DNA of 64,000 nucleotides from Escherichia coli (GTDB taxonomy: Bacteria > Pseudomonadota > Gammaproteobacteria > Enterobacterales > Enterobacteriaceae), in the NCBI RefSeq assembly GCF_024502345.1, contig NZ_JALDNN010000001.1. One strand, written 5' to 3'. The position numbers and the translations under genes were made by a program. Every line of letters begins with the position of its first letter. The stretch's first letter is position 1. This document shows positions 3,196-39,881 of this stretch, in pieces. The notes under the pieces were generated by a model that did no database searches, had not been told where the DNA came from, and worked only from the letters and a program-made list of their open reading frames with translations.

Positions 3196-3300
3196 ATGCC
3201 CTCACCCTGACCCTCTCCAACGGGGCTGAGGGACCCCCACATAATAATACCTCCACGGACGGCTCCCTCTCCCTCAAGGGAGAGGGCTGGGGTGAGGGGG
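3196..3300. repeat. REP-like palindromic repeat units (ccctcaccc / ccctctccctcaagggagagggctggggtgaggggg)
   Basis: Inverted G/C-rich arms read directly in the 670-bp mmuM-tauA spacer; further palindromes at 3373-3405 and 3481-3501. Confidence 0.5.
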
Positions 3301-4771: not shown

Positions 4772-4781
4772 GGAGTCCGCC

Positions 4782-7221: not shown

Positions 7222-7318
7222 TCCCCTCACCCTAACCCTTTCCCAAAGGGGCGAGGGGACTGCCCGGGCGGTTTTCACCCTCTCCCTTTTAGGGAGAGGG
7301 CTGGGGTGAGGGTATTAA
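7222..7318. repeat. REP-like palindromic element (cccctcaccc...ccctctcccttttagggagagggctggggtgaggg)
   Basis: Same repeat family as at 3196-3300; sits between convergent tauD and the acyltransferase gene and overlaps the latter's 3' end. Confidence 0.5.
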
Positions 7319-9013
7319 ATGCGCCTCAATATACCGCTGATAGCGGTTCGCCTTCAGGTAACACAAATCCACCAGCACCAGTCCGTCGACGCAGTCGTTA
7401 AACGCCGGGTCGCTGCCAAAATCAATAAACTGCACGCCGCCGGGTTCACACAGCTCGGAATACTGCTTGTAGAGCGGCGGAATGCCGCAGCCCAGATTGC
7501 CGAGCAGGGATTTCAGCTTTGTCAGGTCATCCACGTAATCCACGCCGCCAAACTGCGCGAGCACGTCCGGCAGCGATGCGGGATACGGCTGACGTGACGC
7601 GGCCAGCGGATGCGTTGCCGGGAACCACAGGCGGTAAAAGGCCACCAGCAGATCCCGTGCGGCAGGCGGTAAGCCACCGGAAATGGAGACCGGGCCAAAC
7701 AGGTAGCGGTAGTTCGGATAACGCGCCAGGTAGGCTCCAATGCCGGACCATAAATAGTCCAGGCCGCGGCGTCCCCAGTAGCGCGGCTGAATAAAGCTGC
7801 GCCCCAGCTCAATGCCGTGCTCCAGTACGTCCTGCATTTTGTCGTCGTAGTGGAACAGGCTATAGCTGTACAACCCCTCAACGCCGCGCTTTTCGATCTG
7901 CATGGCCGTCGGCATAAAGCGATACGCCCCGACGATCTCCAGATCGTCCTCATCCCACAGGATCAGGTGCAGATAATCATCGTCGTAGCTGTCGGTGTCC
8001 CGACGTTTGCCGCTCCCTTCCTCGACCGCGCGAAAGGCAATCTCGCGCAGGCGGCCCAGCTCGCGCAGCAGCGGGGCGTCTTCCTGCCCGTTGCGCTGCC
8101 AAAGATAGATGGTTTTACCGTCGCTGGTATTGCCCAGACATTCGGCCTGCGCCAGCGCGCGTTTCAGGGTGGCGCGGTCTTCCGGGCGGGCAATGGCGCA
8201 CTGGGTTTTAAAGACGCCAGGCAATCCCTTGCCAAGACGCATCACGTGCTGACGGCACTGTTCGGCCATCTCACGCGACGAAAGGCTGGCGCTGTGCCAG
8301 TGATGCCAGGCAATCTGCTGGCCGATCTTAATCGGCAGCTGTCTGTGGCGGCGGCGGAACATCTGCTGCATGAGTAACAGCATTGACAGCGTCGGGGAGA
8401 CCAGCGTGCTGGCATAGAAGAGCAGGCTGTTATGCGCCTGAATATGCACCGGCAGCAGCGGGGCGCGCAGCTTGCTGGCGAGTTTGATAAAGCCAGAGTG
8501 CCACTTTTTGTCGCGAATGCCTTTGCGCGTGGGGCGGGAAACTTCTCCGGCCGGGAAGAAGATCAGCACGCCCGCGTTTTGCAGATGCTGTTCCATCTGC
8601 ACCAGGGACGATTTCGCTGTCCTGCCGCCCATATTATCCACCGGAATAAACAGCGAGCTGAGGGGCTCAAGGTGGGTCAGCATCCGGTTGGTCACGACTT
8701 TAACATCGCGCCTCACGCGGGAAACGGCGTACATCAGCGCCAGGCCGTCCAGCGTACCCGTCGGGTGGTTGGCAATAATGACCAGCGGGCCATGTTCGGG
8801 GATTTGTTCAAGATCGCGGGCGGAAACGGTGCAGAGAATATCAAGGTGTTCCAGAACTTGCTCCACCATATCCAGTCCTTTCAGGTGGCGGTGTGCTGCG
8901 GCAAATTGCTGAAATTCGTCTTCGTAAAACAGTCTTTTTAACAGACTTTTTTGCCAGGGTGCAGGCCTCGCCTGAGGCCAAAGATCGTCGAGAACGCTAT
9001 CGAGGCTAAACAT
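7289..9013 (-). CDS. bifunctional acyltransferase (PlsC-like HX4D domain + GNAT/OlsB-like domain), 'hemolysin-like'
   Basis: 574-aa ORF; NHPTGTLD matches the H(X)4D motif of lysophospholipid acyltransferases. Functional assignment is from motif and architecture only. Confidence 0.55.
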   Translation of the reverse strand: MFSLDSVLDDLWPQARPAPWQKSLLKRLFYEDEFQQFAAAHRHLKGLDMVEQVLEHLDILCTVSARDLEQIPEHGPLVIIANHPTGTLDGLALMYAVSRVRRDVKVVTNRMLTHLEPLSSLFIPVDNMGGRTAKSSLVQMEQHLQNAGVLIFFPAGEVSRPTRKGIRDKKWHSGFIKLASKLRAPLLPVHIQAHNSLLFYASTLVSPTLSMLLLMQQMFRRRHRQLPIKIGQQIAWHHWHSASLSSREMAEQCRQHVMRLGKGLPGVFKTQCAIARPEDRATLKRALAQAECLGNTSDGKTIYLWQRNGQEDAPLLRELGRLREIAFRAVEEGSGKRRDTDSYDDDYLHLILWDEDDLEIVGAYRFMPTAMQIEKRGVEGLYSYSLFHYDDKMQDVLEHGIELGRSFIQPRYWGRRGLDYLWSGIGAYLARYPNYRYLFGPVSISGGLPPAARDLLVAFYRLWFPATHPLAASRQPYPASLPDVLAQFGGVDYVDDLTKLKSLLGNLGCGIPPLYKQYSELCEPGGVQFIDFGSDPAFNDCVDGLVLVDLCYLKANRYQRYIEAHLIPSPQPSP

Positions 9014-9140
9014 GGTTACTCCTCCTGCCGTCTTGCGAAGACAGTAGAAGGCGCAGATGTCGGTTGTATTGCAGTTTGGTGAAGATTAGCGCAGAGAGCA
9101 GGCCGGGTAAGGCGAAGCCGCCACCCGGCGCTAAAGCGGA

Positions 9141-10115
9141 TTAACGCAGAATTTTCTTCTCGGCCAGATCCAGCGCGAAGTAGCTGAAGATCAGATCCGC
9201 GCCTGCGCGTTTGATGGCGCCGAGGCTTTCGAGGACCACTTTCTCTTCGTCAATCGCACCGGCCAGCGCGGCGAATTTGATCATCGCGTACTCGCCGCTG
9301 ACCTGGTAAGCGCCCAGCGGCAACTCGGTGCGCTCGCGGATGTCGCGCAGGATATCAAGGTACGCGCCCGCAGGTTTCACCATCAGGCAGTCTGCGCCCT
9401 GGGCTTCATCGAGCAGGGATTCACGAATCGCTTCGCGGCGGTTCAGCGGGTTCATCTGATAGGTTTTACGATCGCCCTTCAGCGCCGTGCCCGCAGCTTC
9501 ACGGAACGGGCCGTAGAAGGAGGAGGCAAATTTGGTGGAGTAAGACATGATGGCGGTGTCGGTAAAGCCCGCCGCGTCCAGCGCCTGACGGATCGCCTGA
9601 ACCTGTCCGTCCATTGCGGCAGAGGGCGCGATGAAGTCCGCACCCGCAGCGGCAGCCACGACCGCCTGTTTGCCGAGGTTCAGCAGGGTGGAATCGTTAT
9701 CCACGCCGTGATCGCACAGCACGCCGCAGTGGCCGTGGGAGGTATATTCGCAGAAGCAGGTGTCTGACATAACCACCATTTCCGGCACGGTCTCTTTGCA
9801 GATGCGGGACATGCGGGCGACGAGGCCATCTTCTTTCCACGCGTCGCTGCCGGTGGCATCGGTATGGTGAGAGATGCCGAAGGTCATCACCGAGCGGATC
9901 CCCGCGTTGGCGATGCGTTCAATCTCACGTGCCAGATATTTCTCCGGAATGCGCATTACGCCCGGCATGGCTTCGATGGCTTTGTAGTCATCGATCTCTT
10001 CTTCGACAAAAATCGGCAACACCAGATCGTTTAAGGTCAGGGTTGTCTCTTCAAACATAGCGCGCAGTGCAGGTGACTTGCGCAGGCGGCGGGGACGTGC
10101 AATTAAATCGGTCAT
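9141..10115 (-). CDS. hemB: porphobilinogen synthase (delta-aminolevulinate dehydratase)
   Basis: Track ORF extends to a GTG at 10316; true start taken at [26 protein letters not shown] (324 aa). Confidence 0.9.
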
Positions 10116-10150
10116 GGTATGCCTGATGTTTGTGGAACAAAGAAGGCTAG

Positions 10151-11346
<1,196 letters not shown>

Positions 11347-11485
11347 TAAGCTAAAAATGTGATTTAAGTCAAATCAGCAATCGGGGAGTGAAACAGATAA
11401 TGTTTTTATTGCCCGGCAGAAATCCTTCTCCGGGATGTCTCTCTGGAGCTGAAAAGGATGAATCGTATCTACCGGTTGGTCTGGA

Positions 11486-21127: not shown

Positions 21128-24100
21128 CTAGAGGTGCCCTCCAACCCCTTTAAATTTTTCGATAAACGCCCCAATTTTCTGGAATACGGTCTGCTTTTTC
21201 GTTTTGTACTGAGGATTCAGCGGACTGAGCTTTGGTAGCGTCTCATTTAGCTCAGTGCCATTTTCGGTAGCATACTCCCGTTTGAGTGATGTGCGGATAT
21301 AGCGCCTTGCAGCCTCTTCATTGAGGTTTTCTTCCTTAATCAACGCCTCTGCTTCCCGTTGCTGTTCACGCTGAGCATAGGTAAAGAATGCATCAATGAT
21401 ACTGGCCTTGTCCGGCATGTCATCAAGGTTAGTTTGCTGAATAAAGTCAACAATCAGACCTTCTTTGGCACGGTTGCCCAGACTTGAGCGGATTAAGCGT
21501 CTGACCTCTTCAGTCAGGGCTTCTTTACCTTTTTTCTCTCTGTTGTGGTCGAAAATCAGGCCAAGGATGTAATCCAGGTTAATTTCCTGCGACTTCAGCA
21601 GGTCAATTTCAAACACCACGTCATCCCAGTCTGTGGTTGATTTATCCCTGTCGTTTGATGCTTTTTCGCGTCGCTGCCAGTCCCGGATATCATTGTATGC
21701 TGAGCGATAGTCCTGAACTTTACGTTCTGCCGGGAGACGAATGGTTTGTAATTCAGCAAATTTTTCATCATCCACATAGTGCTCTGCTTTAAAGGTTTCT
21801 ACCGCTTCCGGGTCACTAATATCAACCTTCTGCAGGGCTTTCAGCGTGGCAAATTCATCATAGTTTTGCAGGATGTTTTCTGCCCGCAGATATTCACCAA
21901 ACAGTTTGACGAAGGCTTTTTTCTCTTTTTCACTGTCGATACTGGCAGGGTCAGGGAAGCGCTGCTCCAGCTCCGAAACAACAGCCATAAAACCTCGTTT
22001 AGCCTCACCGGTTGCCGCATCGGTAAAGCCCTGCATGTACTCTTCGTAGCTTTTTTCCAGCACCACATTCTTGGTGTTTTTGTCGCCAAAAAGTGTGATG
22101 GCATCAATGGTCGGACGCTCCAGGTCCCTGAAAGTCACGATATTGCCGAAGGTTTTGGTTGCATCATAGATACGGTTGGTGCGTGAGAATGCCTGCATCA
22201 GACCGTGATAACGCAGGTTTTTGTCAACGAACAGAGTATTGAGCGTCGGGGCATCAAAGCCGGTTAAGAACATTCCCACCACGATGAGAAGGTCGATATC
22301 CTGATTTTTCACTCGTTGAGCTAAATCGCGGTAGTAGTTCTGGAAGCCGTTACTGTCGGTACTGAAATTGGTTTTAAAGTGGTTGTTATAGTCATCAATG
22401 GCTGAATCCAGGAATTCCTTTGCGCTGCTGTTCATTGCGCTGGTATCAAAGCTTTCGTCAGTAATATCACCAATGGCGCTTTGCTCTTCATTAGCAGCAA
22501 AAGAGAAGATGGTTGCCACACGAAGACGTTTATAGCTGCCAGATTTCTTCTCAGCTTCTTCCTGTAGCATTTTAAATGTCGTGTAATAAGCTTTTGCCGC
22601 GTCCACGCTGCTCACTGCTAACATGGCATTGAAGCCTTTTGCTCCCGGGAAGGTACGATGCGTTTTCTGGCGGAAGTTATTGAGAATGTATTGCGTTATT
22701 TCCTGGATACGCAGTGGGTGCAGAAAGGCCTGCTGGTTTTCAGCCGCGCTGAGTTTTTTCTCGTCTGTTTCCGTTTCAAGGGACTTAAACTGTGGGCGGA
22801 CATCGTTATAGTCCACCTTAAACTTCAGCACTTTTTCATCACGAATCGCATCAGTAATTACGTAAGAATGTAATTCACGCCCGAAGACGCTGGCGGTGGT
22901 TTCTGCCCCCAGTGCATTTTCCGGGAAAATAGGCGTACCGGTAAAACCAAACTGATAAAAGCGTCTGAATTTCTTTTTGAGGTTTTTCTGGGCCTCACCA
23001 AACTGGCTGCGGTGACACTCATCAAAGATAAACACCACCTGCTGCTGATAGACGGGCAGGTCAGCTTCGGCTTTCATCAGGTTATTGAGTTTCTGAATGG
23101 TTGTGACGATAATTTTGTTATCGTCCTTATCCAGGTTTCTTCTGAGGCCAGCTGTATTATCCGAACCATTCACACTGTCCGGAGAGAAGCGCTGATACTC
23201 CTTCATGGTCTGGTAATCGAGGTCTTTCCTGTCGACCACGAAGAAGACTTTATCAATAAAGTCCAGCTCGGTTGCCAGTCGTGCGGCCTTAAAACTGGTC
23301 AGGGTTTTTCCTGACCCTGTGGTATGCCAGATAAACCCGCCGCTTTCGGGTTTTGACCAGTTCTTCGCTTTAAAAGAGCTGTTGATTTTCCAGAGAATGC
23401 GCTCAGTGGCCGCTATCTGATAGGGACGCATGACCAGCAGTGTCTGGCTGCTGTCAAACACGCTGTAATTAAACAGAACATTCAGCAGGGTATGCTTCTG
23501 GAAGAAAGTGGCGGTAAAGTCCTTCAGGTCCTTTATCAGGGTGTTATCCGATTTCGCCCAGTTCATGGTGAAATCAAAGCTGTTTTTATCCCGCTTAGTG
23601 GTACTGGCAAAGTACCGGGTATCAGTCCCGTTGGAAATCACGAAGAGTTGCAGGTATTTAAACAGGGAGTTATCGCTGTTAAAGCTTTCCTTGCTGTAAC
23701 GGTGTATCTGGTTAAAGGCTTCACGAATCGCCACGCCGCGCTTTTTGAGTTCGATTTGCACCAGTGGCAGGCCGTTGACCAGAATGGTGACGTCATAACG
23801 GTTAGCGTGTGAGCCGGTCTGCTCAAACTGCTGAATGACCTGCACCTTATTGCGCAGCAGGTTCTTTTTATCTATCAGATAGATGTTTTCCAGACGACCA
23901 TCATCAAACGTAAAATCACAGATATAGTCGATATGGATTTTACGGGTTTTGTCCAGGCTGCTGTCACTGGGGCTGTCCAGATACTGCTCTGCGAAGCGCC
24001 GCCATTCACTTTCGTTAAACTCCACACCATTAAGACGCTGAAGCTGGTCCCGCACATTCGCCAGCATCGCAGTCGGTGACTTAACGGAGATAAACTCATA

Positions 24101-24244
24101 CCCCTGATTAAGAAGGTCCTGAATCAGCTCCCGCTCAAGGTCCAATTCGCTCTGGTAGCTGTCACCGGTATCCATAACTTTTGTGTATTTATCAAGGACG
24201 ATAAAGTTATTGGATTCAGCAATGGTGTGTGTCTGTTGTGTCAT
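21128..24244 (-). CDS. hsdR: type I restriction enzyme R subunit (HsdR), type IC-like size
   Basis: 1038 aa; Walker [18 protein letters not shown]-box helicase motifs (FDECHRSQ), N-terminal nuclease region; RBS present. Confidence 0.9.
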
Positions 24245-24360
24245 GGAGCATCCTGTGCGTCATCTGGCAAAGTCCGGAAGGGTATCAGAAGCATCTTCCG
24301 GCATTCATAAAACCTGATACCGGACGGGTGAGAACAAACCCTGCCGGTATCAATGGTCCG

Positions 24361-25569
24361 TCAGTTGCTAGTTGTTTCGTGCTTCGGGAAGCTGAACAAC
24401 AAGTCGCGATAGTACTCGTACTGCTTCTGGCGTAGTTCTATTTCACGGGGTAAGCCTTCGGTGATAGAGCTTGTTAATGTGTCGAATTTATCGAGTATGG
24501 TGACAATCCTAACTTGCTCTGACTTTGAAGGGATTGGTAGTAAAAGGTCCTCCATTTGTTTTTTGGATACGGCAGGAATACCTCCTTTCTGCTGAATACC
24601 CGTTAATTTGGTCTCGGATTGTTTCAGATAGTAATAGACATACATCCAATGCAACTGTTCAGTGCTTCTAACAGAGATGGAATAGCAACTATTGCCTGCC
24701 CAGTAAGGAGTGGAACTCTTATTTACAAATCCTGCATTTGCTCCACGCGCACTCACAATAATCTTATCGCCATCATTGTTGAAGTCTTCGTAGTAACCTG
24801 TAGGAGTCCGCCCTCCGTTGTAGACCGGATAATCTGCGTCAGGATTCTGCTTGTCCTTACGGACAAACGCACCAATTGTAATTATTGCTACTTCCCCCAG
24901 ACTCTTCCACTCAACACTCCCCCCCTCAAAACTCAGCAATTGGTTACGATAGTAATTGTACTGCTTTTTACGCATGGTAAGCTCAGCTGTAAGCTCAGCT
25001 GTAAGAGCAGTAAATTTATCCAGAATTCGGACGATTTCAGACTGGATGGTCAGAGACTTTTCAGGATTTTCCGGGCAAGGAATGGGGGCTTTATATGCTG
25101 AAATCATTTGAAGATTCAGCCCACCACGCCCGCTGTTCCCAGATGATATCTGACGTAGATTATCATACTGGGTTTCCAAAAAGTGGAAAATATAATCTGA
25201 ATTGATCTTCCGCTCATCAAATGTAATGGCTGCAAGTGATTGATTGGTGGTTAATTTAATGCGGGTTCTTGCTACTTTACCACGAGTTTTACCCTGACCT
25301 GCTAATGCCATAACAATGGAATTTTCAGGAACAAATTTAGCACTTGAGTTATTTAATCCATCCTCAGTAATGAATGTCTCAGTTTCTTTGATGGTTTTTA
25401 AATTTACTTCACCTGAACTCATCCAGGGGATAGTTCCATGCTCCCAATATTCTGTTTTTTTAGTATCAGGGGTGCCACCAGAATAAATTTTTTTTGCAAC
25501 CTTACCGAGAGGGAACCACTCAACCTCAATCCCCTCCAGCAGTTTTTCCAGATAATTTAGCTTACTCAT
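24361..25569 (-). CDS. hsdS: type I restriction-modification specificity subunit (HsdS)
   Basis: 402 aa with two target-recognition domains separated by a central conserved region containing TAELTAEL; start overlaps the hsdM stop (ATGA). Confidence 0.85.
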
Positions 25570-27122
25570 GCCTGCGCCTCGTAGCCTTCAATTTCTGCCA
25601 CAATCGCATCAATGTCTTTGCGTAACTGGTCGATTTTGCTGACCGTGGTTTTAAGCTCAACATTCAGTTCGGTGATATCGACGATTTCACGGGTATCTTT
25701 TGCTTCGACGTAGCTACTGACAGACAGATTGTAGTCATTACCAGCAACAGTCTCTAATGGCACCGTTTTCGCCAGATGGTCAGTATCTGCCTTACTGTTG
25801 AACACATCCATAATCTGCTTAATATGACCATCAGTCAGGATATTGTTATTGGTTTCTTTCTTAAACAACCCGCTGGCGTCAATAAACTGAACGCGGGTAT
25901 CTGTTTTGTGCTTGGACAACACTAGTATGTTAACGGCAATGGTGGTGCCGAAGAACAGATTTGGTGCCAGAGAAATCACCGTTTCAACATAGTTGTTGTC
26001 GACCAGGTACTGGCGGATTTTCTGCTCTGCTCCGCCACGGTAGAAAATACCGGGGAAGCAAACTATTGCTGCACGCCCTTTAGCTGACAGGTAGTTTAGT
26101 GCATGTAGCACAAACGCAAAGTCAGCTTTTGATTTCGGGGCCAGTACGCCAGCAGGAGCAAAGCGCTCATCGTTAATCAGGGTCGGATCATCACTACCAA
26201 TCCACTTAACCGAGTACGGTGGGTTAGAAACAATCGCATCGAACGGTTTTTCATCGCCAAAGTGAGGCTCAGTCAGGGTATTCCCCAACCTGATATCAAA
26301 CTTATCGTAGTTGATGTTGTGCAGGAACATATTCATACGCGCCAGGTTAAACGTCGTATGATTTATCTCTTGTCCGAAAAAACCTTCTTCAATGATATGA
26401 TTATCAAAGTGCTTCTTCGCCTGAAGCAGCAGTGAGCCAGAGCCTGCGGCAGGGTCATAGATTTTGTTGACGTGAGTCTGACCATGCATCGCAAGCTGAG
26501 CAATCAGCTTAGAGACGTGCTGTGGTGTGAAGAACTCCCCGCCAGACTTACCGGCATTCGCCGCATAGTTTGAAATCAGGAACTCGTAGGCATCACCGAA
26601 AAGGTCAATCTGGTGCTCATTAAAATCCCCGAGCTTTAGCCCCTCAACGCCTTTCAGAACGGCAGCGAGGCGGCTGTTTTTGTCTTTGACGGTGTTACCC
26701 AGTCGATTGCTGGTCGTATCGAAATCGGCAAACAGACCTTTGATGTCGGCCTCAGACGGATAGCCGTAGGCAGAGCTTTCAATAGCGACGAAGATACTGT
26801 TTAAATCAGCATTCAGCCTGTCGTTGGTGTTCGCTTTAGCGGCAACGTTGCAGAACAGCTGGCTCGGATAGATGAAATAGCCTTTAGTCCTGATGGCATC
26901 ATCTTTGATGTCATCGGTAATGATGCTGTCATCAAGTGCTGCATAATGTATGCTCTCATCCCCTGCTTCCATGTAGCTGGAAAAATTCTCACTGATGAAG
27001 CGGTAGAAAAGGGCACCGAGTACATACTGTTTAAAATCCCATCCATCTACTGAGCCCCTGACATCATTGGCAATGGCCCAGATTTGACGGTGTAGTTCTG
27101 CACGTTGTTGAAGACTGGTCAT
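25566..27122 (-). CDS. hsdM: type I restriction-modification N6-adenine DNA methyltransferase (HsdM)
   Basis: 518 aa; catalytic NPPY motif ([10 protein letters not shown]) and AdoMet-binding motif. Confidence 0.9.
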
Positions 27123-28522: not shown

Positions 28523-29236
28523 TTAATTGCGATTATTCGGTTGTTTTGCCCCGTAATGCATTATCTGATGAATAATGTTCATGTGGGGTAAGGCTTCCAT
28601 AAAGTCAGACTGTTCAATCAGCGAAATGAGTGTGTTATCGATCTCAAACGTTGTATCCGGTAATACCTCAACCAGCCTGATTCGGGACAGGGAAATAACG
28701 AACACGCCCGATGACGTACATCCGGCAAGAAACCACTCCGCATGGCTGCAAAGCAGACGGTAGGGATGAACGGTATGGCTGACGTTTTCGTCGGTTCTGA
28801 TACGCACCTGGGTCTGGTTAAGTATGGCGAGCGTCAGTCTGCTGAAATCACCGAAAAGGGTGGGTTTCTGGCGCGGCTCCGGTAGCATAATCCTGTATGG
28901 CGAGGGACGTTCCCCGTCAAGCATCAGGCTCAGTAGTTTGGCATCCATCGCGGGTAACAGACGGTCAAGATGCAGCAACCTCGCCAGTATCTTCATATCC
29001 CGTTCCGTGCGGCGACGAAAGTAATGTGAGGCAAGCTGATACACGCCGTTGCTCTGTTCAATATCAAGGTAGGTCAGACGGACGTTGAAATCCCGTCGCA
29101 GCGTTCGCGTCGTCACTCCAAATTCTTCTGCCAGCGTCCCGATATGCAGCTTTTCACCCTGAAACAAACGGCTCAGGATGATGGAAAGGCGGGTTGCCAG
29201 TCTGTCATGTTCGTTTTCTTGTGTTATCAGCGTCAT
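28523..29236 (-). CDS. HTH-WYL domain transcriptional regulator
   Basis: N-terminal HTH LAEEFGVTTRTLRRDF; central WYL-type segment HPYRLLCSHAEWFLAGCTSSGVFVISLSRIRLVEV. Confidence 0.7.
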   Translation of the reverse strand: MTLITQENEHDRLATRLSIILSRLFQGEKLHIGTLAEEFGVTTRTLRRDFNVRLTYLDIEQSNGVYQLASHYFRRRTERDMKILARLLHLDRLLPAMDAKLLSLMLDGERPSPYRIMLPEPRQKPTLFGDFSRLTLAILNQTQVRIRTDENVSHTVHPYRLLCSHAEWFLAGCTSSGVFVISLSRIRLVEVLPDTTFEIDNTLISLIEQSDFMEALPHMNIIHQIMHYGAKQPNNRN

Positions 29237-29338
29237 ACATCATTTCCGAATTTAGCCGGGAAATGATGCCAGCAGTAGCGGACAGGATTTGTCCGCCCTC
29301 TGAAGTTTTTTAAAGTCTGAATACCTTAAATGTAAGTG

Positions 29339-30088
29339 CTAAACGTCAGTATTCTCAGGTGAATAAAGATGCTTCTGGCGCATGTAGGCAATAAAAATGC
29401 AGGATGGTAGCGTCACCCGGTATGCGGGACCGGCTAAATCAATCAGCAGCCAGAGAGAACTGAGCACCCAGCCCACGGGACCGGCAAAAGCGCCCATGGT
29501 ACGCGTCAGCATGGCATTTCCTGCAACGGTCAGCCCTCTGCCTAACAGGGCTTTCGCCACACCATTTGTGACAACAAGTGCCATCTGATAGGCCGCAAAC
29601 CCGGATGTTTTAATCCCCGCCTGGATTGCCATGGTCAGCAGCTCCGGCGTGGGATTGCTGTAGCCTGTCTGCAATTCTTCCGCCACGGTCTTTAGCTGAG
29701 CGGGTGTCATCTTCTCAAGGCTTTTCTCCAGGATCTTCATCAGCAGATTCATTTCAATGGTTTCAACACTGGATTTGCTGTTGTAGTTCACCTTCATTTT
29801 ATCGCAGGCATCGGTAAGAATTTCCCGGTACAGCACCCCTTTACCCCAGCGGAGCAGCGTGGCAAAGCTGTTCGCCCCAAACGTCTGAACTTCGGCGGCA
29901 ATGGCATCCCAGTAGCGCGGGTGGTTGGGCTTGTGTTTTTTATACTGAGGATCATAGGTCAGCGTTTCCGTGATGCGTGCCAGTCCGTCTTTCGGATCGC
30001 AGATAAGCACAGAAACCAGTAAATCCAGATCGTCACGATGACAGTGGCGCAGAAACTCAAGGTCGGGGTCGTGTCGGTAGGTAGCCAT
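29339..30088 (-). CDS. hypothetical protein (249 aa) with C-terminal Gly-rich hydrophobic segment
   Basis: ...GAFAGPVGWVLSSLWLLIDLAGPAYRVTLPSC...; possibly YaaW/UPF0174-like (from memory, unverified). Confidence 0.5.
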   Translation of the reverse strand: MATYRHDPDLEFLRHCHRDDLDLLVSVLICDPKDGLARITETLTYDPQYKKHKPNHPRYWDAIAAEVQTFGANSFATLLRWGKGVLYREILTDACDKMKVNYNSKSSVETIEMNLLMKILEKSLEKMTPAQLKTVAEELQTGYSNPTPELLTMAIQAGIKTSGFAAYQMALVVTNGVAKALLGRGLTVAGNAMLTRTMGAFAGPVGWVLSSLWLLIDLAGPAYRVTLPSCIFIAYMRQKHLYSPENTDV

Positions 30089-33204: not shown

Positions 33205-34515
33205 ATGAAACCCGATAGTTCTTTAAACCAAATAACGCAGACAATGAAACGGAATGATGTTGATTCTGTGGATAGTCGCTTTTTTGAGTCAGCGCAAAAC
33301 ATGAAAACCAGCGTTGACGTTGAAGATTGCTGCGTTGAAGTGATGGTTCGACATCACAGCCCAAAGAATCAAAGAGAGGCATTCACTAAAGCTTTTTTTG
33401 ATGAGTGTAAAATCCGTGCAGTACAAACTGGCCGGACTATCGAAGCCAGCGATACAAAATGTACCGGGCTTAAGGCTATATTCCACTCATCCGGACGCAT
33501 TAAGTTTATTGTCCGCAAAAGTATTCGCGGAAAGAATGTTTACGTTGCAGTAGGAAGTTACCCTGAATTTTCCATTAATAACGCAAGGGAACATGCCTTT
33601 AAAATAATTCAGGAGCTTAAGGCTTCCGTTGAGACTTATGGTGAGCGTTTTCTTACTCACAGTAAAATGACGTTTAATGAGCTTGTGGATGAGTATGAGA
33701 AAAGCGTACTCAGCACGGGCGTTAAGCGTTCAGCTAACACCGATCTTTCTAAGATCCGTAAATACCTGCGCCCTCTTCTCGGTGCCAAAAAGCTGGCAGG
33801 TATGACGGAGGCAGATATTCTGAGCTATCTGCATAATCTCGATCTCAAGCCTGCCACCCGCAACCGCCATCTGGCGCTCATTAAAGCGGTGTTTACCAGG
33901 GCAATACGCATGGGATACATCAGCCGCTCTCCGGCGCTTTATATCAAAGCGCTGCCTGAAGTGACGTCAGATCGCCGTGCCATGGATGACTCCCAGCTTC
34001 AGCGCTGGATGGACGTCTGTGAGCGCTGGCGTAATGGTAAACCCGATCATGAAGCCCTTGCTCTTCTCATGTTCCTTGCCCTGACGGGGCTGCGTCTGGG
34101 GGAAACCCGTCACCTTCGTCTTGAAGATGTGGACTGGAGCCGCAAGGTTATCACCCTTCGCCATACCAAAAACGGCAAACTACGCCGTGTACCGGTATGT
34201 GATAAGGCTTTCGTTCTTCTGACAGAACAGCGTCAGCATCTGGGTGATGAAGGCTGGGTATTTCCGGGCAAGGGAACCGACAATCCGGTTGCTGAGCCGC
34301 GTCGCCTGCAAAAACGACTTTGTGAGGCTGCGGGTATTCCACCGTTCACCATCCATGAGATGCGTCATACCTTTGCGACAAAGCTCATTGAGAGCGGGGC
34401 CGACATTCACACCGTCAAAGACTTATTGGGTCACAGCACTATCAAAGTAACGGAGCTTTACTTGCACGCTTCCCCGGCGCGTTACCACGAAGTCGTTAAC
34501 CGGGCGATGGGGTAA
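33205..34515 (+). CDS. tyrosine recombinase/integrase (P4-like arm-binding N-terminus)
   Basis: 436-aa ORF; C-terminal catalytic region ...HEMRHTFATKLIESGADIHTVKDLLGHSTIKVTELYLH (HxxR...Y). Confidence 0.75.
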   Translation: MKPDSSLNQITQTMKRNDVDSVDSRFFESAQNMKTSVDVEDCCVEVMVRHHSPKNQREAFTKAFFDECKIRAVQTGRTIEASDTKCTGLKAIFHSSGRIKFIVRKSIRGKNVYVAVGSYPEFSINNAREHAFKIIQELKASVETYGERFLTHSKMTFNELVDEYEKSVLSTGVKRSANTDLSKIRKYLRPLLGAKKLAGMTEADILSYLHNLDLKPATRNRHLALIKAVFTRAIRMGYISRSPALYIKALPEVTSDRRAMDDSQLQRWMDVCERWRNGKPDHEALALLMFLALTGLRLGETRHLRLEDVDWSRKVITLRHTKNGKLRRVPVCDKAFVLLTEQRQHLGDEGWVFPGKGTDNPVAEPRRLQKRLCEAAGIPPFTIHEMRHTFATKLIESGADIHTVKDLLGHSTIKVTELYLHASPARYHEVVNRAMG

Positions 34516-34584
34516 CAACCTTCACTCAACGGTATGGTTTTTAACTATGGTTCTGATGCACCCGTTTTCTGACGGTGGCGTAAT

Positions 34585-36513
34585 TTGATGGTAATACACA
34601 TGAATAAAAAAGTGACAACTAATGTTCCTAAGGTTTCCGGGATTAAGCGTATTCGCGCTTTTGCTGACCGCGATAAAAATTTCAACAAAATGTCGGAAGC
34701 AATTATCAGGCGTGCTGAAAACACTGAGGTCGGTGAAGATGATATCGCTTCACTCGGTATTGGTGATGGGCTGCCACGGCATTATGTGAATACGGCTAAT
34801 GGCCTTTTCTACATCGGTGGACAGAAACCTGTGCAGGTTTGCACCACGCCAGTTGTGCCTGTCGCCCTGTTTTGTGGAAAAGATAAGGAGTCCGGTCTTG
34901 GGATCAGCCTGATGACCGGTAACGGGCTGGGTAAGTATGTTAAGGCCCTGGTACGCTTTGAGGATATTGTTCAGAGCGGTGCTCAGGTAGTAGGCAAACT
35001 GGCAGATCGTGGATTTTGTGTTGGCTCCTCTCCACAGCAGTTTGCCCTTTTTGACCGTTTTCTTCAGCGCTGCCGGAGTTTACCGCTGCCTGTCTATCTG
35101 ATGGCAGATGCGATGGGATTCGTTTCGGAGGATATGGCCTTTTTACATGGTCATGAGCCCGTTGTGACCTCTCTGACCGGGTTTGATTATCTACTGCCGG
35201 GATTCCGCGTGCGTCCCGGACTGCACAAAGGTGGGGCCCTGGAGGAGTGGATTAACCTCATCCGGGAAAATGTCCATGGCTGGGCGCAGACCTTTGCACT
35301 GAGTGCGTCCTTTGCTTCGATGCTTCTGGTTCCTGCCGGTATGGATGTGGGCATGTTTCATTTTCACGGCGTATCCACCACCGGTAAAACGCTTCTCCTG
35401 ATGCTGGCTGCATCGGTCCATGGTGATGGCAGCGAGCCGGGTAGTGGGGGGAATGTAAATATTATTCGCTGGAATACCACGCCTAACGCGATGGAGCGCC
35501 TTCTCGCTGACTATTCCGGTCTGGTCGCCTGCGTCGATGAACTGGGTGCGAGTAATCATAAGCAACTTTCCTCACTGCTTTACAACATTACGTCAGGTAC
35601 GGCAAAAGAGCGCCTGAACCGTGGCCTGACGGCAGATGAGCCGTTTAAATGGCGCATGTTTATTCTCTCCACCGGTGAGATGTCAATCTCCGAAAAGCTG
35701 GCTGAACAGAAAGCCGTGTTACAGGGAGGGCAGGAGCACAGGGCCATCAGTATGGAACTGTTGCCTGAGGATGCTCAAAAACCGGATGAACCGGTATCAG
35801 AAACACGTGCCCGTGCAGATGCACTGAAGACGGGGCTGGCAGAGGCTTATGGTCATGCCGGGCCTGCATTTATCGGCAAACTGTTATCCGGGAAAAATAC
35901 GGCTGGCGGTCTTCGCACCTACGCAGAGTTTTCATCCTGGCTCCAGGAACAGACAGATGATTGCTGTAACGCACTGGAAGAGGCCCTGAGGGATGAGGGG
36001 CGTGATATTACCCGCGTTCAGCGGCGCGGACTGAAAAGATTTGCGCTGGTATGGCTGGCAGGAGAGAAGGCGCTGAAATATGGCCTTTTACCTTTCGAAA
36101 GCGATGCGGTGGCTGAATCCGTTATGTCCGCTGCACGACGCTGGCTGGATGATAACCAGAATCAGTATAACCCGGTGCGTAACATGCTGGAGGAGCTTCA
36201 GCTGACGCTGGTGACAAAAAGCAGCAGGCACTTTATCACCCTGCGTGACGAACATGCCCGATGCCCGGGAGATATGTGGGGATTCGTCCATTACAAAACC
36301 GGCGACTTCCTGATTTATGAATCGGTGTTTGAAAAGCTCTGTTCTGAAAAGGGACTTAAGACCGTTGATGTGGCCAGACCGTTAGAGCGTTCCGGTTATC
36401 TGCTTGGCGAAAGTGCCGGACACTATAAAAAAAGAGCGCTGAAGACGATGGCGCAGTCTTACTACCAGGTCAAAAAAGCGTTTCTGAAATGCAATGTGAT
36501 GACCGAATTTTAA
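34585..36513 (+). CDS. DUF927-like P-loop NTPase, putative replication/primase-helicase protein
   Basis: 642 aa; Walker A GVSTTGKT, Walker B-like VACVDELG; positioned after the integrase as in satellite-like elements. Confidence 0.55.
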   Translation: MMVIHMNKKVTTNVPKVSGIKRIRAFADRDKNFNKMSEAIIRRAENTEVGEDDIASLGIGDGLPRHYVNTANGLFYIGGQKPVQVCTTPVVPVALFCGKDKESGLGISLMTGNGLGKYVKALVRFEDIVQSGAQVVGKLADRGFCVGSSPQQFALFDRFLQRCRSLPLPVYLMADAMGFVSEDMAFLHGHEPVVTSLTGFDYLLPGFRVRPGLHKGGALEEWINLIRENVHGWAQTFALSASFASMLLVPAGMDVGMFHFHGVSTTGKTLLLMLAASVHGDGSEPGSGGNVNIIRWNTTPNAMERLLADYSGLVACVDELGASNHKQLSSLLYNITSGTAKERLNRGLTADEPFKWRMFILSTGEMSISEKLAEQKAVLQGGQEHRAISMELLPEDAQKPDEPVSETRARADALKTGLAEAYGHAGPAFIGKLLSGKNTAGGLRTYAEFSSWLQEQTDDCCNALEEALRDEGRDITRVQRRGLKRFALVWLAGEKALKYGLLPFESDAVAESVMSAARRWLDDNQNQYNPVRNMLEELQLTLVTKSSRHFITLRDEHARCPGDMWGFVHYKTGDFLIYESVFEKLCSEKGLKTVDVARPLERSGYLLGESAGHYKKRALKTMAQSYYQVKKAFLKCNVMTEF

Positions 36514-36562
36514 CCCTGAATAAAACCATTTTGACTGAATAACAACGAATAGAAGGTGATGT

Positions 36563-36919
36563 ATGATTTTTGAATCAGACCAGTACTATGACGGTTTTCC
36601 TCACGCTATCAGCAGCGAAAATGAAGAAAAAACCTCATTCAATGATTACGCTCTGGTTAACACACTGGCGGAGTGCCTGTATCACGACATTTCTCGTGAA
36701 ATCTTCGATGGCAGTGAGCCGGCGCTCCGGGCCGTCATTGCCAACGGTCAGATTAAATTCCTGGCTCGTTATACGCTTAGAGGGGCCTGCTATTATGAAC
36801 CCCTCGGCACATTTCCACGTATGCCCGTTAACGTCGCGCGTGAACGAGCACGTGAACTCTATAACAGATTTGATGATCACCGGGTGCCGGATGAAGAATA
36901 TGGGGCCATCCCGTTCTGA
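36563..36919 (+). CDS. hypothetical protein (118 aa)
   Basis: ORF following the replication gene; no motif. Confidence 0.4.
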   Translation: MIFESDQYYDGFPHAISSENEEKTSFNDYALVNTLAECLYHDISREIFDGSEPALRAVIANGQIKFLARYTLRGACYYEPLGTFPRMPVNVARERARELYNRFDDHRVPDEEYGAIPF

Positions 36920-36930
36920 CTGATGGCTGA

Positions 36931-36965
36931 ACAGTAAAAAAAAGCAGGGGCACTTGCCTCTGCTT
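36931..36965. terminator. bidirectional terminator between convergent genes
   Basis: aaaaaaaa-gcaggggcacttgcctctgc-ttttctgtt hairpin flanked by A- and T-runs. Confidence 0.4.
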
Positions 36966-36973
36966 TTCTGTTA

Positions 36974-38158
36974 TCACAAGGACGGTAGCTGAGCCGTTAT
37001 CCTTTCCGCCAGTAACTGACTGGTGTTCTGTAAGCGCTGAGGATGAAGATGCGCATACCGTTGTGAAGACTGACTGCTGCGGTGCCCCAGTTGAGCCTGA
37101 ACGTCATACAGTGTTCCGCCGTAGGACACGATGAGGGCGGCAACCGAATGGCGGCAGGTATGAATACACACTTCTTTGTCGAAAATTCCCGCCCGACGAA
37201 CGATACGCTGAAAGGCTTTAACGGGGTTATTCAGCGGCATTCCTTGTTTTTTACCGATAAACAACCACGGATTTCCACGCTGTGTTGGCAGTGTTCTGAT
37301 TACGTCCATCGCCAGTGAATTAAGATGAACAATCCGTCCATAGCCATTCTTGGTTTCCGGGAGCCATAGGGTGCGTTTAACCGGGTCAACATGCTCCCAC
37401 TTAGCCAGACGCAGTTCATCACGACGAAGGCCGGTCAGTAACAGCAGTTTGACATAGCGGGCAGCTACGGGGCTGGTATCGTTATCGGCGGAGAGAAAAA
37501 TACGACGAATTTCGTCCTCGGTAAAATAACGCTGTCGGGCGTTGTTCTCCCTGAGTAGCTGTACCACCCTTGCCGGATGAACAGAGGTCATGCTTTGCCT
37601 TCCGGCCCATGTAAAGACGGCTTTAATGAGTACGATGACACGGTTACAGGTAGCCGCTGACAGGGAAGTACTTAACGTCTGCTGAAGGCGCAGAATGCTC
37701 GCTGGTGTGATATCGCTCAGCAGCCTCTGACCAATGGCGGGACGGATATGATCGCGGTAGCGCTGAACATCCTTTCCCCAACTGCGTTTAGCGGATTTTG
37801 CCCATGGCAGATAATGCTGATTAAAGAGTTCATCGAACGTCAGCTCCATTCTCTTGTTTTCACGCTCCTGCTTAGGGTCAGTGCCGGTGGCAAGGGAACG
37901 TTTGTGTTCTATGGCAATCTGACGAGCAAGATTGACGTCCACTTCAGGCCAGTGACCAATGGCGATGGCGCGTTTTCGTCCATGATAAAGGTAGCGTAGC
38001 AAAAACTTTTTACGACCTTCTCTTCTGCTGACCAGACACTTGAGGCCGGAAATCTCAGTGTCGCTGTATTCGGCATCGGTACTGCGTGCATCGGATGTGT
38101 TAGGGGGCAGGGATTTAATGAGCTGATTAGTAAAACGGAAGCGTTTGGGGGTGGACAT
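36974..38158 (-). CDS. tyrosine integrase (P4-type), the one nearest the intact tRNA-Phe
   Basis: 394 aa; DUF4102-like N-terminus (...EISGLKCLVSRREGRKKFLLRYLYHGRKRAIAIGHWPEVDVNLAR...) and C-terminal catalytic region HTCRHSVA...LGHRSSQSSQRYAHL. Confidence 0.8.
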   Translation of the reverse strand: MSTPKRFRFTNQLIKSLPPNTSDARSTDAEYSDTEISGLKCLVSRREGRKKFLLRYLYHGRKRAIAIGHWPEVDVNLARQIAIEHKRSLATGTDPKQERENKRMELTFDELFNQHYLPWAKSAKRSWGKDVQRYRDHIRPAIGQRLLSDITPASILRLQQTLSTSLSAATCNRVIVLIKAVFTWAGRQSMTSVHPARVVQLLRENNARQRYFTEDEIRRIFLSADNDTSPVAARYVKLLLLTGLRRDELRLAKWEHVDPVKRTLWLPETKNGYGRIVHLNSLAMDVIRTLPTQRGNPWLFIGKKQGMPLNNPVKAFQRIVRRAGIFDKEVCIHTCRHSVAALIVSYGGTLYDVQAQLGHRSSQSSQRYAHLHPQRLQNTSQLLAERITAQLPSL

Positions 38159-38503
38159 ATAACCTCCTGTGACTGGTGTAAAGAACGTCAGGGTTGCCCC
38201 ATCCCCGGCACGGCGCTGTTAATGGCTGAGTTGATTTTCTGGTGTGGCTAAGGGAATGCTGGTGCCACATGGGATGAATGAAGACGAGAAATACAGCAAA
38301 AACAGGCGTTACGGTCTGCTTCTGGTCTTAAGGGGAAGATTGCCGTTGGGGAAGAGTTCACAGAAATAATATGTGTTTCAGTCGGGTATAATTACATGTG
38401 ATAAGGGCAAAGAGCGTGCTTTGCTAAAATTTGACATGTTGAAGTCCACTCTTTTTAACGATGTCGTTATGGACGACATGGCGAGTCTTGCTTAGATAAT
38501 TAA

Positions 38504-39091
38504 TCAAAATACTGTGACTTTGGACCCACGTTTACCACATTTCGAGCACTTGAGCCGAGTTTTAAGGTCTTCTAGAGTTACTCCCATTGCAACATACTGC
38601 TTAAGGTCGTTCAAAGTAAGGATTGTGGGGAGACGACAAAAAAATCCAGAGGCGCAACATACCAGCATCTCCGAGCCGTTTTTTAACCAGTCCTCAAGAT
38701 TATCGTGCGATCTCGTTAGTCGTTCGATATCCGCTCTCCACTGCTGGATTTCATTACCGTTCCAGTCGATATTTAGCTCGATTTGTTTGGCAACGAACCG
38801 GTGTTTACCTCTGTTAACTGTGGGTTCATAGTCCTTACGTTGATCTTTGATGAGATCAGCCTCATAGAGGAAATCATCGTTTTTGTTGTCGGTATAATCA
38901 AAAATTACCTTAATTAAATCAATATCAACGTTTTGTTTTTTGATGAATAAACCCTGTGTTCCGCTTCCGTTCAAGTCCCGGCTAAAGTTAATGTTGAGAT
39001 GGCGGCGGAGTGAGAAGAAATAGCTGTGGCCGTGCATAGCCAATGCAAGTCTGGCTATGTCATTGCAGTTGTAGGGTGTGTGTGTATCCAT
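38504..39091 (-). CDS. hypothetical protein (195 aa) with C-terminal CxxC-like tail
   Basis: ORF between integrase and att region; ends ...LKCSKCGKRGSKVTVF. Confidence 0.4.
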   Translation of the reverse strand: MDTHTPYNCNDIARLALAMHGHSYFFSLRRHLNINFSRDLNGSGTQGLFIKKQNVDIDLIKVIFDYTDNKNDDFLYEADLIKDQRKDYEPTVNRGKHRFVAKQIELNIDWNGNEIQQWRADIERLTRSHDNLEDWLKNGSEMLVCCASGFFCRLPTILTLNDLKQYVAMGVTLEDLKTRLKCSKCGKRGSKVTVF

Positions 39092-39805
39092 GATGTTACC
39101 TTTAATTCATATTCGGTCGAGAGCGTCAGGAAACTATCCTAATATACCTTTTTTCTACACCAGTATTTGGATCAATTTTCATCCCTTTGGCCTGCTTCTT
39201 GTTGATTAACTCTCAGCGATGTTTGAAATAGGCCATCAGTGGTCAGAATCATTTTTTACTTCCACTTTTTGCTCAGATTTGACCCTAAGGTCTAAGTTCC
39301 AATACGTTTCGCTCAATTACTATCACCCCTGATAAATTATTCTATGATGACGTGGAGGGCGGGGGATTCAGGCAATGTTAAGAAATGAAAGGTTTAAATG
39401 CGAATATTACAGGTGGAGGAGGTGGTGGATACCCCCGACTGACAAGGGGAGTTGATGGCGCTGAGTTCACCCCCTTGCCTGAAGAGGAGTCTCCCCGGTC
39501 TTCCCCCGGGGGGGATGGCAGGTAATTTGTTGTTAAATAAAGTAAATTATGAAATCCCCCATTTCCCCCGTATTCTCTGCTTCATTATGAATAATCTTAG
39601 AGAAAGGAACCGTAAAGGACCGTAGAAAGACCGTAGCTGTGAGGTGAGGGAAGGCACATCAGAGGATGTTGAGGTGTCTAAAAGTAACGAACATCTGCAA
39701 AAATGGTGAAAAATCCAGCAAGAAAATAACGTGTTGCAACGACCAGAAATCTACCGTAGCTAAGAAAGGAAAAAGCCCCGCTTTTCAGCGAGGCCTTATG
39801 AATAT

Positions 39806-39881
39806 TGGTGCCCGGACTCGGAATCGAACCAAGGACACGGGGATTTTCAATCCCCTGCTCTACCGACTGAGCTATCCGGGC
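39806..39881 (-). tRNA. pheV: tRNA-Phe (GAA anticodon)
   Basis: Revcomp reads gcccggatagctcagtcggtagagcaggggattgaaaatccccgtgtccttggttcgattccgagtccgggcacca, a canonical 76-nt tRNA-Phe with CCA end; next to yqgA-speC. Confidence 0.95.

What the first reader, a model, noticed from the sequence alone, without database searches (positions are those of the whole stretch)
24361..25569. hsdS carries a 12-bp tandem duplication (TAEL x2) in its central conserved region
At 24977-25000 the unit gtaagctcagct occurs twice in tandem, encoding TAELTAEL between the two target-recognition domains. In the EcoR124I/EcoR124II type IC systems the copy number of this 12-bp unit (2 vs 3) changes the spacer length of the recognition sequence. 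The HsdR/HsdM/HsdS sizes here (1038/518/402 aa) are close to that family. The repeat is a natural slipped-strand or unequal-crossover site that could switch specificity.
Basis: partly seen in the sequence, partly recalled or inferred. Interest (0 to 1): 0.5.

Follow-up and report, generated by a model that had tools for sequence, protein, structure and literature searches.

The report
Type IC hsdS with standard TAEL×2 ruler
The 12-bp repeat is real, but it is the normal, long-known "ruler" of EcoR124-family (type IC) restriction enzymes, here in its commonest two-copy state, in an E. coli chromosomal island carrying an uncharacterised combination of DNA-recognition domains.

Summary
A perfect 12-bp unit (coding strand ACAGCTGAGCTT) occurs 2.4 times at 24977-25005 and encodes TAELTAEL (aa 190-197) in the central conserved helix of a 402-aa HsdS.

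HsdR, HsdM and HsdS are close homologues of the EcoR124 proteins, in the order hsdM-hsdS-hsdR, and the central region matches EcoR124I residue for residue around the repeat.

Two copies is the family norm, not a fresh duplication:
- 114 of the 120 closest HsdS proteins have two units.
- 14 of 20 alleles in a copy-number-neutral DNA scan of species-representative genomes have two, and 6 have three.

Copy-number change does occur in nature:
- Two protein pairs differ only by one TAEL unit.
- E. coli TUM2820 carries three units with the same C-terminal recognition domain in a closely related island.
- Units are identical within an allele but differ synonymously between alleles, which indicates concerted evolution.

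No 1- or 3-copy variant of this particular allele was found. The gene is a mosaic: TRD1 resembles an IncN plasmid allele and TRD2 a chromosomal E. coli allele.

Verdict: a known mechanism in a new, uncharacterised family member. The spacing is predicted to be EcoR124I-like (N6-type). The half-sites could not be assigned. Interest is low.

The parts
25566..27122 (-). hsdM, 518 aa, the type IC modification (m6A methyltransferase) subunit. Its stop codon overlaps the hsdS start by 4 nt (ATGA).
   Evidence: ORF and translation. PDB 7bst_D, EcoR124 M protein: 1089 bits over residues 1-517, against a self-score of 1167. NCBIfam TIGR00497 hsdM, 3.3e-192.
24361..25569 (-). hsdS, 402 aa, the type IC specificity subunit.
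   Evidence: PDB 7bst_A, EcoR124 S subunit, E=6.8e-88. PADLOC Specificity_I, 9.4e-123. An identical protein is on record as E. coli 'restriction endonuclease subunit S' (P0001).
25516..25569 (-). N-terminal conserved segment of HsdS (aa 1-18, [18 protein letters not shown]).
   Evidence: Conserved in the alignment with the EcoR124 S subunit and three other alleles.
25087..25515 (-). TRD1 (aa about 19-161), the first target-recognition domain. It is 98-100% identical at DNA level to the hsdS of a Shigella dysenteriae IncN plasmid (L005) and unrelated at DNA level to the alleles of E. coli MRY15-117 and TUM2820.
   Evidence: (H58).
24889..25086 (-). Central conserved region (aa 162-227, [12 protein letters not shown]...[32 protein letters not shown]...SLGEV). 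This is helix D1 of the coiled coil that sets the distance between the TRDs. The apparent recombination junction between the plasmid-like and chromosome-like halves lies at its 5' edge, about window 25030-25089.
   Evidence: Invariant columns. Residue-for-residue match to the EcoR124 S subunit. Binned identity.
24977..25005 (-). The 12-bp tandem repeat: ACAGCTGAGCTT x2, flanked by partial copies (CTT before, AC after). The TAELTAEL codons span 24979-25002.
24541..24888 (-). TRD2 (aa about 228-343), the second target-recognition domain. It is about 100% identical to the chromosomal E. coli alleles of MRY15-117 (two TAEL) and TUM2820 (three TAEL), and about 96% identical to the K. pneumoniae pKPHS2-type plasmid alleles.
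24364..24540 (-). C-terminal conserved region (aa 344-402, LPIPS...[36 protein letters not shown]...). This is helix D2, the homologous partner of D1. Its linker between LDKFxxL and xRxKQY is 13 aa, against 9 aa in D1 here.
21128..24244 (-). hsdR, 1038 aa, the type IC restriction/translocase subunit. It lies 116 nt downstream of hsdS, with no prrC-like gene in between.
   Evidence: PDB 2w00 (EcoR124I HsdR): 2125 bits over residues 1-1037, against a self-score of 2316. TIGR00348 hsdR, 2.4e-220.

Best explanation
Window 21128-27122 (minus strand) encodes an apparently intact EcoR124-family (type IC) restriction-modification system in the order hsdM-hsdS-hsdR. It sits in a genomic island next to tRNA-Phe on an E. 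coli chromosome.

The 12-bp repeat is the family's canonical tetra-amino-acid (TAEL) repeat in helix D1 of HsdS. D1 and the C-terminal helix D2 form the antiparallel coiled coil that holds the two target-recognition domains apart. The number of TAEL units therefore sets the spacing and rotation between the two half-sites and between the two methylated adenines.

With two units, as in EcoR124I (GAAN6RTCG), this enzyme should recognise a bipartite site with EcoR124I-like spacing. That means N6 if the half-sites are 3 and 4 bp. Gain or loss of one unit by slippage or unequal crossing-over would shift the spacer by +1 or -1 bp and create a new specificity.

The two-copy state is inherited and typical, not a new duplication. 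Unit turnover happens on evolutionary time scales in the family, and nothing shows it to be a fast switch in this strain.

The allele is a recombinant of a plasmid-type TRD1 and a chromosomal-type TRD2, joined in the conserved region.

Shown: the anatomy, the homology, the family-wide copy-number variation and the mosaicism. Inferred: activity of the system, the N6-type spacing, and the ability of this allele to switch.
For: Repeat and reading frame.

Family membership:
- Searches show near-identity of R and M to the EcoR124 proteins, and a central region of S identical to EcoR124I including TAELTAEL.
- One search gives the gene order and sizes.
- Searches give the family models.

Mechanism from the literature:
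- PMC3874165: two versus three TAEL units give N6 versus N7; the change arises by unequal crossing-over in D1; EcoDXXI and EcoPrrI have three; hybrids with changed repeat numbers behaved as predicted.
- PMC10644984: deleting one unit converts EcoR124II to EcoR124I.
- PMC6789123: natural N. gonorrhoeae strains with 1 versus 2 LEAT units in the type IC NgoAV methylate GACN6TGC versus GACN7TGC.

Two copies is typical:
- 114 of the 120 nearest HsdS proteins have two units.
- 14 of 20 true hits have two units, and 6 have three, in a degenerate DNA scan of species-representative genomes that did not constrain copy number between 1 and 5.

Turnover is real:
- P0066 versus P0037, and P0024 versus P0014, differ only by one TAEL unit.
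- E. coli TUM2820 has three units with the same TRD2 in a closely related island: the flank at window 28170-51690 is 98% identical.
- Twelve distinct synonymous unit sequences occur among 22 alleles. Units within an allele are almost always identical: mean 0.11 differences within versus 1.98 between alleles, permutation p<5e-5.

Mosaic structure.
Against: - No methylome or restriction data exist for this strain, so activity and the recognised sequence are untested.
- No 1- or 3-copy variant of this exact TRD combination was found. P0001, P0002 and P0003 all have two copies, as do the three contigs that encode P0001 itself.
- With only two 12-bp units, the switching rate is expected to be low.
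- Spacer length in type IC enzymes also depends on where the methylated adenine sits within each half-site, so 'N6' is a prediction of spacing class, not of the literal N count.
- The top-120 protein list is ranked by similarity to a two-copy query, so it may slightly over-represent two-copy alleles.
Confidence: 0.9

Rival explanations
1. The repeat is an active contingency locus. Within populations of this strain it switches between 1, 2 and 3 units at a frequency high enough to create subpopulations with different restriction and methylation specificities, that is, phase-variable specificity.
For: - The two units are 100% identical at DNA level over 29 nt.
- Family-wide concerted evolution, and pairs differing only by one unit, show that gain and loss recur.
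- EcoR124I and EcoR124II are reported to differ through unequal crossing-over at this repeat (PMC3874165).
Against: - Only two units of 12 bp are present, far fewer repeat units than I would expect, from general knowledge, at a classical phase-variable simple-sequence tract.
- 114 of 120 nearest relatives sit at exactly two units.
- Every recovered copy of this allele and its 90-91% relatives has two.
- No read-level data were available.
Confidence: 0.08
2. The repeat is a recent de novo duplication specific to this strain. A one-copy ancestor gained a unit, as the finding's title implies.
For: The two units are perfectly identical, as expected just after a duplication.
Against: - The identical two-copy central region, with 100% DNA identity from about nt 540 of the gene onward, is shared with many other E. 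coli chromosomal alleles such as MRY15-117.
- EcoR124I has the same TAELTAEL at protein level.
- One-copy alleles are the rare state, 2 of 120.
- Perfect identity of units is the rule across the family because of homogenisation.
Confidence: 0.02
3. The repeat is a chance repeat or an assembly artefact with no functional meaning.
For: None found.
Against: - The chance expectation is about 4e-6 per 64 kb.
- The repeat is in frame, at the homologous position of a functionally characterised repeat.
- The same protein is recovered from three independent assemblies.
Confidence: 0.01

Closest known systems
EcoR124I (type IC prototype, plasmid R124; GAAN6RTCG; PDB 7bst/2w00)
   Same: - Same gene order, hsdM-hsdS-hsdR.
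- HsdR is 1038 aa in both, and HsdM is 518 versus 520 aa.
- HsdR and HsdM reach about 92-93% of the self bit score.
- The HsdS conserved regions are nearly identical, including exactly two TAEL units.
   Different: - Both TRDs differ. TRD1 aligns only weakly with EcoR124I TRD1, and its best local match within that protein is to TRD2, so the half-sites are not GAA/RTCG.
- The system is chromosomal, in an island next to tRNA-Phe, rather than on a plasmid.
- The repeat unit is ACAGCTGAGCTT rather than ACCGCTGAGCTT.
- The residue after the repeat is T, not N.
EcoR124II (EcoR124/3), EcoDXXI and EcoPrrI: type IC enzymes with three TAEL units (N7 spacers)
   Same: Same family and the same repeat at the same place. 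These enzymes show what a +1 unit change would do (PMC3874165).
   Different: - They have three units where the window has two.
- EcoPrrI has the anticodon nuclease gene prrC embedded in its operon. Here the hsdS-hsdR gap is only 116 nt and holds no gene.
Chromosomal type IC hsdS alleles of E. coli TUM2820 (L004) and MRY15-117 (L006)
   Same: - TUM2820 shares the island flank to the right of the hsd genes, and both strains have the same hsdM-hsdS-hsdR arrangement.
- TRD2 and the C-terminal region are about 100% identical.
   Different: - TRD1 is different in both.
- TUM2820 has three units (ACAGCTGAACTT x3) and MRY15-117 has two.
NgoAV of Neisseria gonorrhoeae (type IC with LEAT repeats)
   Same: It has a tetra-amino-acid tandem repeat in the central conserved region. 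Natural between-strain copy-number variation there changes the methylated motif's spacer by 1 bp per unit (PMC6789123).
   Different: - The repeat peptide is different (LEAT).
- NgoAV also has a poly-G tract that truncates hsdS. No such tract or truncation is present here.

Membership tests
Type IC restriction-modification (EcoR124 family) | HsdR and HsdM amino-acid sequence similarity to the family prototypes. Families are defined by complementation, antibody cross-reaction and sequence (PMC3874165). | tested here: met
   HsdR scores 2125 bits against EcoR124I HsdR over residues 1-1037 (self-score 2316). HsdM scores 1089 bits against the EcoR124 M protein over residues 1-517 (self-score 1167). 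The next-best solved M subunit scores 320 bits and EcoKI (type IA) 68 bits.
Type IC restriction-modification (EcoR124 family) | Gene order hsdM-hsdS-hsdR. That this order is typical of the family is my own knowledge, not tested. | tested here: met
   On the minus strand: hsdM 27122-25566, hsdS 25569-24361 (4-nt overlap with hsdM), hsdR 24244-21128.
Type IC restriction-modification (EcoR124 family) | HsdS architecture: N-terminal, central and C-terminal conserved regions flanking two variable TRDs, with D1 and D2 similar to each other. | tested here: met
   Alignments. D1 (ILDKFTAL...[16 protein letters not shown]) and D2 (ILDKFDTL...[16 protein letters not shown]) are visibly homologous.
Type IC restriction-modification (EcoR124 family) | Tandem tetra-amino-acid repeats (TAEL, LEAT, SEAL or TSEL) in the central conserved region (Adamczyk-Poplawska 2003, as cited in PMC10030836). 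| tested here: met
   TAEL x2 at aa 190-197.
Type IC restriction-modification (EcoR124 family) | Genetic complementation with, or antibody cross-reaction to, EcoR124 subunits. | not testable with these tools
   Requires experiments.
Type IC restriction-modification (EcoR124 family) | Repeat number sets the spacer of the recognised sequence for this allele. | not testable with these tools
   Requires a methylome of the strain and of engineered 1-, 2- and 3-unit variants. It is supported only by analogy.
Phase-variable type I systems (repeat-mediated switching, 'phasevarions') | Within-population, high-frequency length variation of the repeat tract. | not tested
   No read data were available. 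The indirect evidence is against it: only two units, and all recovered copies of this allele have two.

The most novel reading that the evidence does not exclude
The TAEL tract is kept perfectly homogeneous at DNA level in nearly every allele. This holds in Enterobacterales, Acinetobacter, several Bacteroidota (Cyclobacteriaceae, Chryseobacterium, Paludibacter and an unclassified genome) and Gracilibacteria, while the unit sequence differs synonymously between alleles. That pattern implies frequent, ongoing unit loss and re-gain. The chromosomal allele here could therefore still toggle between N5-, N6- and N7-type specificities within E. coli lineages, as a slow specificity switch layered on top of TRD shuffling.
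Probability: 0.3. Interest if true: 0.3.

Novelty: new member of a known kind. Interest (0 to 1): 0.15.

Why it matters
The mechanism, helix length as a molecular ruler for a bipartite DNA site, has been known since 1989, so this case adds little conceptually. The practical value is modest. It identifies an apparently intact EcoR124-type system with an uncharacterised pair of recognition domains in an E. coli tRNA-Phe island. It predicts the spacing class of the recognised site. The family survey also shows that 1-, 2- and 3-unit alleles and concerted evolution of the unit are widespread, which supports repeat turnover as a general route to new type I specificities alongside TRD recombination.

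Tried and rejected
- Half-site assignment. I tried to assign the half-sites recognised by TRD1 and TRD2 from the literature. Searches for Klebsiella and E. coli methylome papers and the K. pneumoniae motif table list type I motifs, but none can be linked to these TRDs without REBASE sequences. Abandoned.
- Primary sources on repeat-number mutants and switching frequency. Gubler & Bickle 1991 (PMC452739) and Youell & Firman 2008 (PMC2415743) are not held. I therefore make no claim about what 1- or 4-unit enzymes do, or about measured switch rates.
- Metagenome scan with this allele's exact flanks and a variable gap. It found only two alleles (L029 with three units, L030 with two). Both have other TRDs, so it gives no within-lineage variant of this allele.
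- Promoter and terminator consensus scan of the operon. It found no more sites than in shuffled sequence, so no regulatory claim is made.
- Fresh duplication, chance repeat and assembly artefact were considered and rejected (see the rival explanations).
- A prrC-like insertion, as in EcoPrrI, was considered. There is no room for one in the 116-nt hsdS-hsdR gap.

Full report
**1. The observation**

The window reads GTAAGCTCAGCT GTAAGCTCAGCT GTAAG at 24977-25005. Tandem Repeats Finder reports period 12, 2.4 copies, 100% matches and score 58.

The ORF 24361-25569 on the minus strand is 402 aa. In its frame the repeat is ACAGCTGAGCTT x2, encoding TAELTAEL at aa 190-197 within ...[40 protein letters not shown]....

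A perfect array of this kind is expected about 4e-6 times in 64 kb of random sequence. The identical protein is encoded on three independent public contigs and is on record as an E. coli protein (P0001).

**2. What the genes are**

The three adjacent minus-strand ORFs are hsdM (25566-27122, 518 aa), hsdS (24361-25569, 402 aa, overlapping hsdM by 4 nt) and hsdR (21128-24244, 1038 aa, 116 nt downstream of hsdS).

Against solved structures:
- HsdR matches EcoR124I HsdR (2w00) over residues 1-1037 with 2125 bits. Its self-score is 2316.
- HsdM matches the EcoR124 M protein (7bst_D) with 1089 bits, against a self-score of 1167. The next-best solved M subunit scores 320 bits and EcoKI 68 bits.
- HsdS's best match is the EcoR124 S subunit (7bst_A, E=6.8e-88). 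The conserved N-terminal, central and C-terminal regions are near-identical and the TRDs divergent. The central stretch [23 protein letters not shown] is identical in both proteins.

NCBIfam and PADLOC models agree. This is a bona fide EcoR124-family (type IC) system, apparently intact, with no prrC-like gene inserted.

**3. What the repeat does, from the literature**

Loenen et al. (PMC3874165) summarise the classical work.
[quoted passage not shown] - It encodes TAEL, and one extra unit moves the domains by about one base-pair step.
- EcoDXXI and EcoPrrI have three units, and hybrids with altered repeat numbers behaved as predicted.

Two later papers add direct tests. Removing one unit converts EcoR124II into an EcoR124I-type enzyme (PMC10644984). 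In natural N. gonorrhoeae strains, 1 versus 2 LEAT units in the type IC NgoAV go with GACN6TGC versus GACN7TGC methylation (PMC6789123).

The window itself shows that the D1 linker between LDKFxxL and xRxKQY is 9 aa (TAELTAELT). The homologous D2 linker is 13 aa ([13 protein letters not shown]). A three-unit D1 would therefore equal D2 in length, consistent with the review's remark that three units look 'optimal' in alignments.

**4. Is two copies unusual?**

No.
- Among the 120 closest HsdS proteins returned by the protein search, 114 have two units. These include variants such as TNELTNEL, TDELTDEL and TAELSAEL. Two have one unit (P0024, P0066), two have three imperfect units (P0041, [13 protein letters not shown]0085, TVELTAKLTAEL), and two (P0012, P0024-like exceptions aside) could not be scored cleanly as two units.
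- This list is ranked by similarity to a two-copy query. I therefore also scanned one genome per species with a degenerate DNA pattern anchored on LDKF and KKQY. The pattern accepts 1 to 5 units and does not require the units to be alike.
- Of 22 matches, 20 are genuine hsdS central regions. Fourteen have two units and six have three.
- They come from Enterobacterales, Acinetobacter, Cyclobacteriaceae, Chryseobacterium, Paludibacter, Gracilibacteria and others.

'Tandem duplication' is therefore the ordinary, inherited state of the family.

**5. Is there length polymorphism?**

Yes, between strains.
- P0066 (K. pneumoniae, 394 aa) differs from P0037 (398 aa) only by one TAEL unit.
- P0024 (396 aa) differs from P0014 (Salmonella, 400 aa) in the same way.
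- E. coli TUM2820 carries three units (ACAGCTGAACTT x3), together with a TRD2 about 100% identical to the window's, in a closely related island: the flank at window 28170-51690 is 98% identical.
- A metagenome allele with an EcoR124-like TRD1 has three units (L029).

For the window's own TRD combination, only two-unit copies were found. P0001, P0002 and P0003 all have two units, as do the three contigs that encode P0001.

**6. Concerted evolution**

Across 22 alleles there are 12 different unit sequences, mostly differing at synonymous sites (ACA, ACC or ACG; GCT, GCA, GCC or GCG; GAG or GAA). Units within one allele are almost always identical.
- Mean differences are 0.11 within alleles and 1.98 between alleles.
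- None of 20,000 permutations was as low as the observed within-allele value (p<5e-5).
- The amino-acid variants TNELTNEL and TDELTDEL show the same pattern.

This means units are repeatedly lost and regenerated from a neighbour. That is what slippage or unequal crossing-over predicts. It says nothing about the rate in this strain.

**7. The allele is a mosaic**

In 60-nt bins, nt 1-480 of the gene (TRD1) are 93-100% identical to the hsdS of a Shigella dysenteriae IncN plasmid (L005). The same stretch is 43-67% identical to the E. coli MRY15-117 allele. From about nt 540 to nt 1140 the gene is 100% identical to the MRY15-117 allele, falling to 85% in the last bin, and from about nt 600 to the end it is 100% identical to the TUM2820 allele; it diverges from the plasmid allele.

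The switch lies at the 5' edge of the central conserved region. This is the classical site of TRD reassortment in type I families (PMC3874165). No record in the E. coli complete-genome or plasmid collections covers 80% or more of the gene. Relatives with the same TRD pair at 90-91% identity exist in Salmonella and in a metagenome.

**8. Context**

The window is E. coli.
- The right flank (speC, nupG, mltC) and the island match E. coli chromosomes at about 98%.
- A tRNA-Phe lies at 39806-39881.
- A tyrosine integrase lies just below it at 36974-38158.
- The hsd operon lies in this island, next to a JukA-like gene and a WYL-domain gene.
- A second integrase lies immediately downstream of hsdR.

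**9. Mechanism and verdict**

The most likely reading (confidence about 0.9) is a functional type IC system whose HsdS carries the standard two-unit TAEL ruler. It is predicted to recognise a bipartite target with EcoR124I-type spacing. The literal number of N depends on where the methylated adenine sits in each half-site.

The half-sites could not be assigned without REBASE. Unit gain or loss would alter the spacer by one base pair.

A fast, phase-variable switch is unlikely (about 0.08), given only two units and uniform two-copy recoveries. A strain-specific fresh duplication, chance and artefact are effectively excluded.

The finding is correct but describes a textbook feature. The only new elements are an uncharacterised TRD combination and the family-wide picture of unit turnover. 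Interest is low.

Noticed in passing
window 28523-30088 (-): Two genes lie upstream of hsdM. A 249-aa protein matches PADLOC JukA (1.5e-72). The adjacent 237-aa protein is WYL-domain-like (4e-15). The type IC system therefore sits in a small defence island. No JukB partner was looked for.
   Followed up: partly
window 13493-13555 (+), inside the autotransporter ORF 11486-14536: A perfect 9-bp unit (ACACCTACA) is repeated 7.0 times in frame in an AIDA-I/MisL-type autotransporter gene. With seven units, it is a more plausible length-variable tract than the two-unit TAEL repeat.
   Followed up: no
window 20611-20891, inside ORF 20568-20912 (-): A 48-bp unit is repeated 5.9 times at 84% identity, with a 144-bp super-period. 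It fills most of a 114-aa ORF between hsdR and the integrase. RefSeq records list a '5-fold beta-flower protein' among the features under the matching stretch, which probably corresponds to this ORF.
   Followed up: no
window 1-10300: The block mmuP-mmuM-tauABCD-(OlsF-like acyltransferase)-hemB has 58-62% G+C, against about 44-54% for the rest of the window. It is 100% identical in only 17 of 5426 complete E. coli genomes and 80-90% identical in nearly all the others. It looks like a divergent or foreign version of a core region.
   Followed up: partly
window 10298-20044: This stretch holds a cluster of mobile-element genes and gene fragments: an IS5 transposase whose ORF overlaps the extended hemB ORF by 19 nt (10298-10316), IS30, an IS1 fragment, a C-terminal fragment of a methyl-accepting chemotaxis protein, and an integrase. 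In E. coli G3/10 the left block lies at 0.87 Mb and the hsd island at 4.45 Mb (H92, H76). Their adjacency here may therefore reflect an IS-mediated rearrangement.
   Followed up: no
window 33205-39881: This is the tRNA-Phe end of the island. It holds tRNA-Phe (39806-39881), a tyrosine integrase (36974-38158), a second tyrosine recombinase (33205-34515), and a 642-aa protein with a Cch-type replicative-helicase match (34585-36513; RefSeq relatives are annotated DUF927).
   Followed up: no
window 24313-24353, the hsdS-hsdR intergenic gap: An imperfect inverted repeat (GATACCGGACGGG ... CCCTGCCGGTATC) is visible in the 116-nt spacer between hsdS and hsdR. It could be an attenuator or processing hairpin. 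The consensus terminator scan did not flag it.
   Followed up: no
L029 5210-6383 (metagenome contig Ga0308167_1005073): An hsdS allele has an N-terminal TRD closely resembling that of EcoR124I (the GAA half-site domain), three TAEL units and a different TRD2. It is a natural EcoR124II-like N-terminal half recombined with another C-terminal domain.
   Followed up: no
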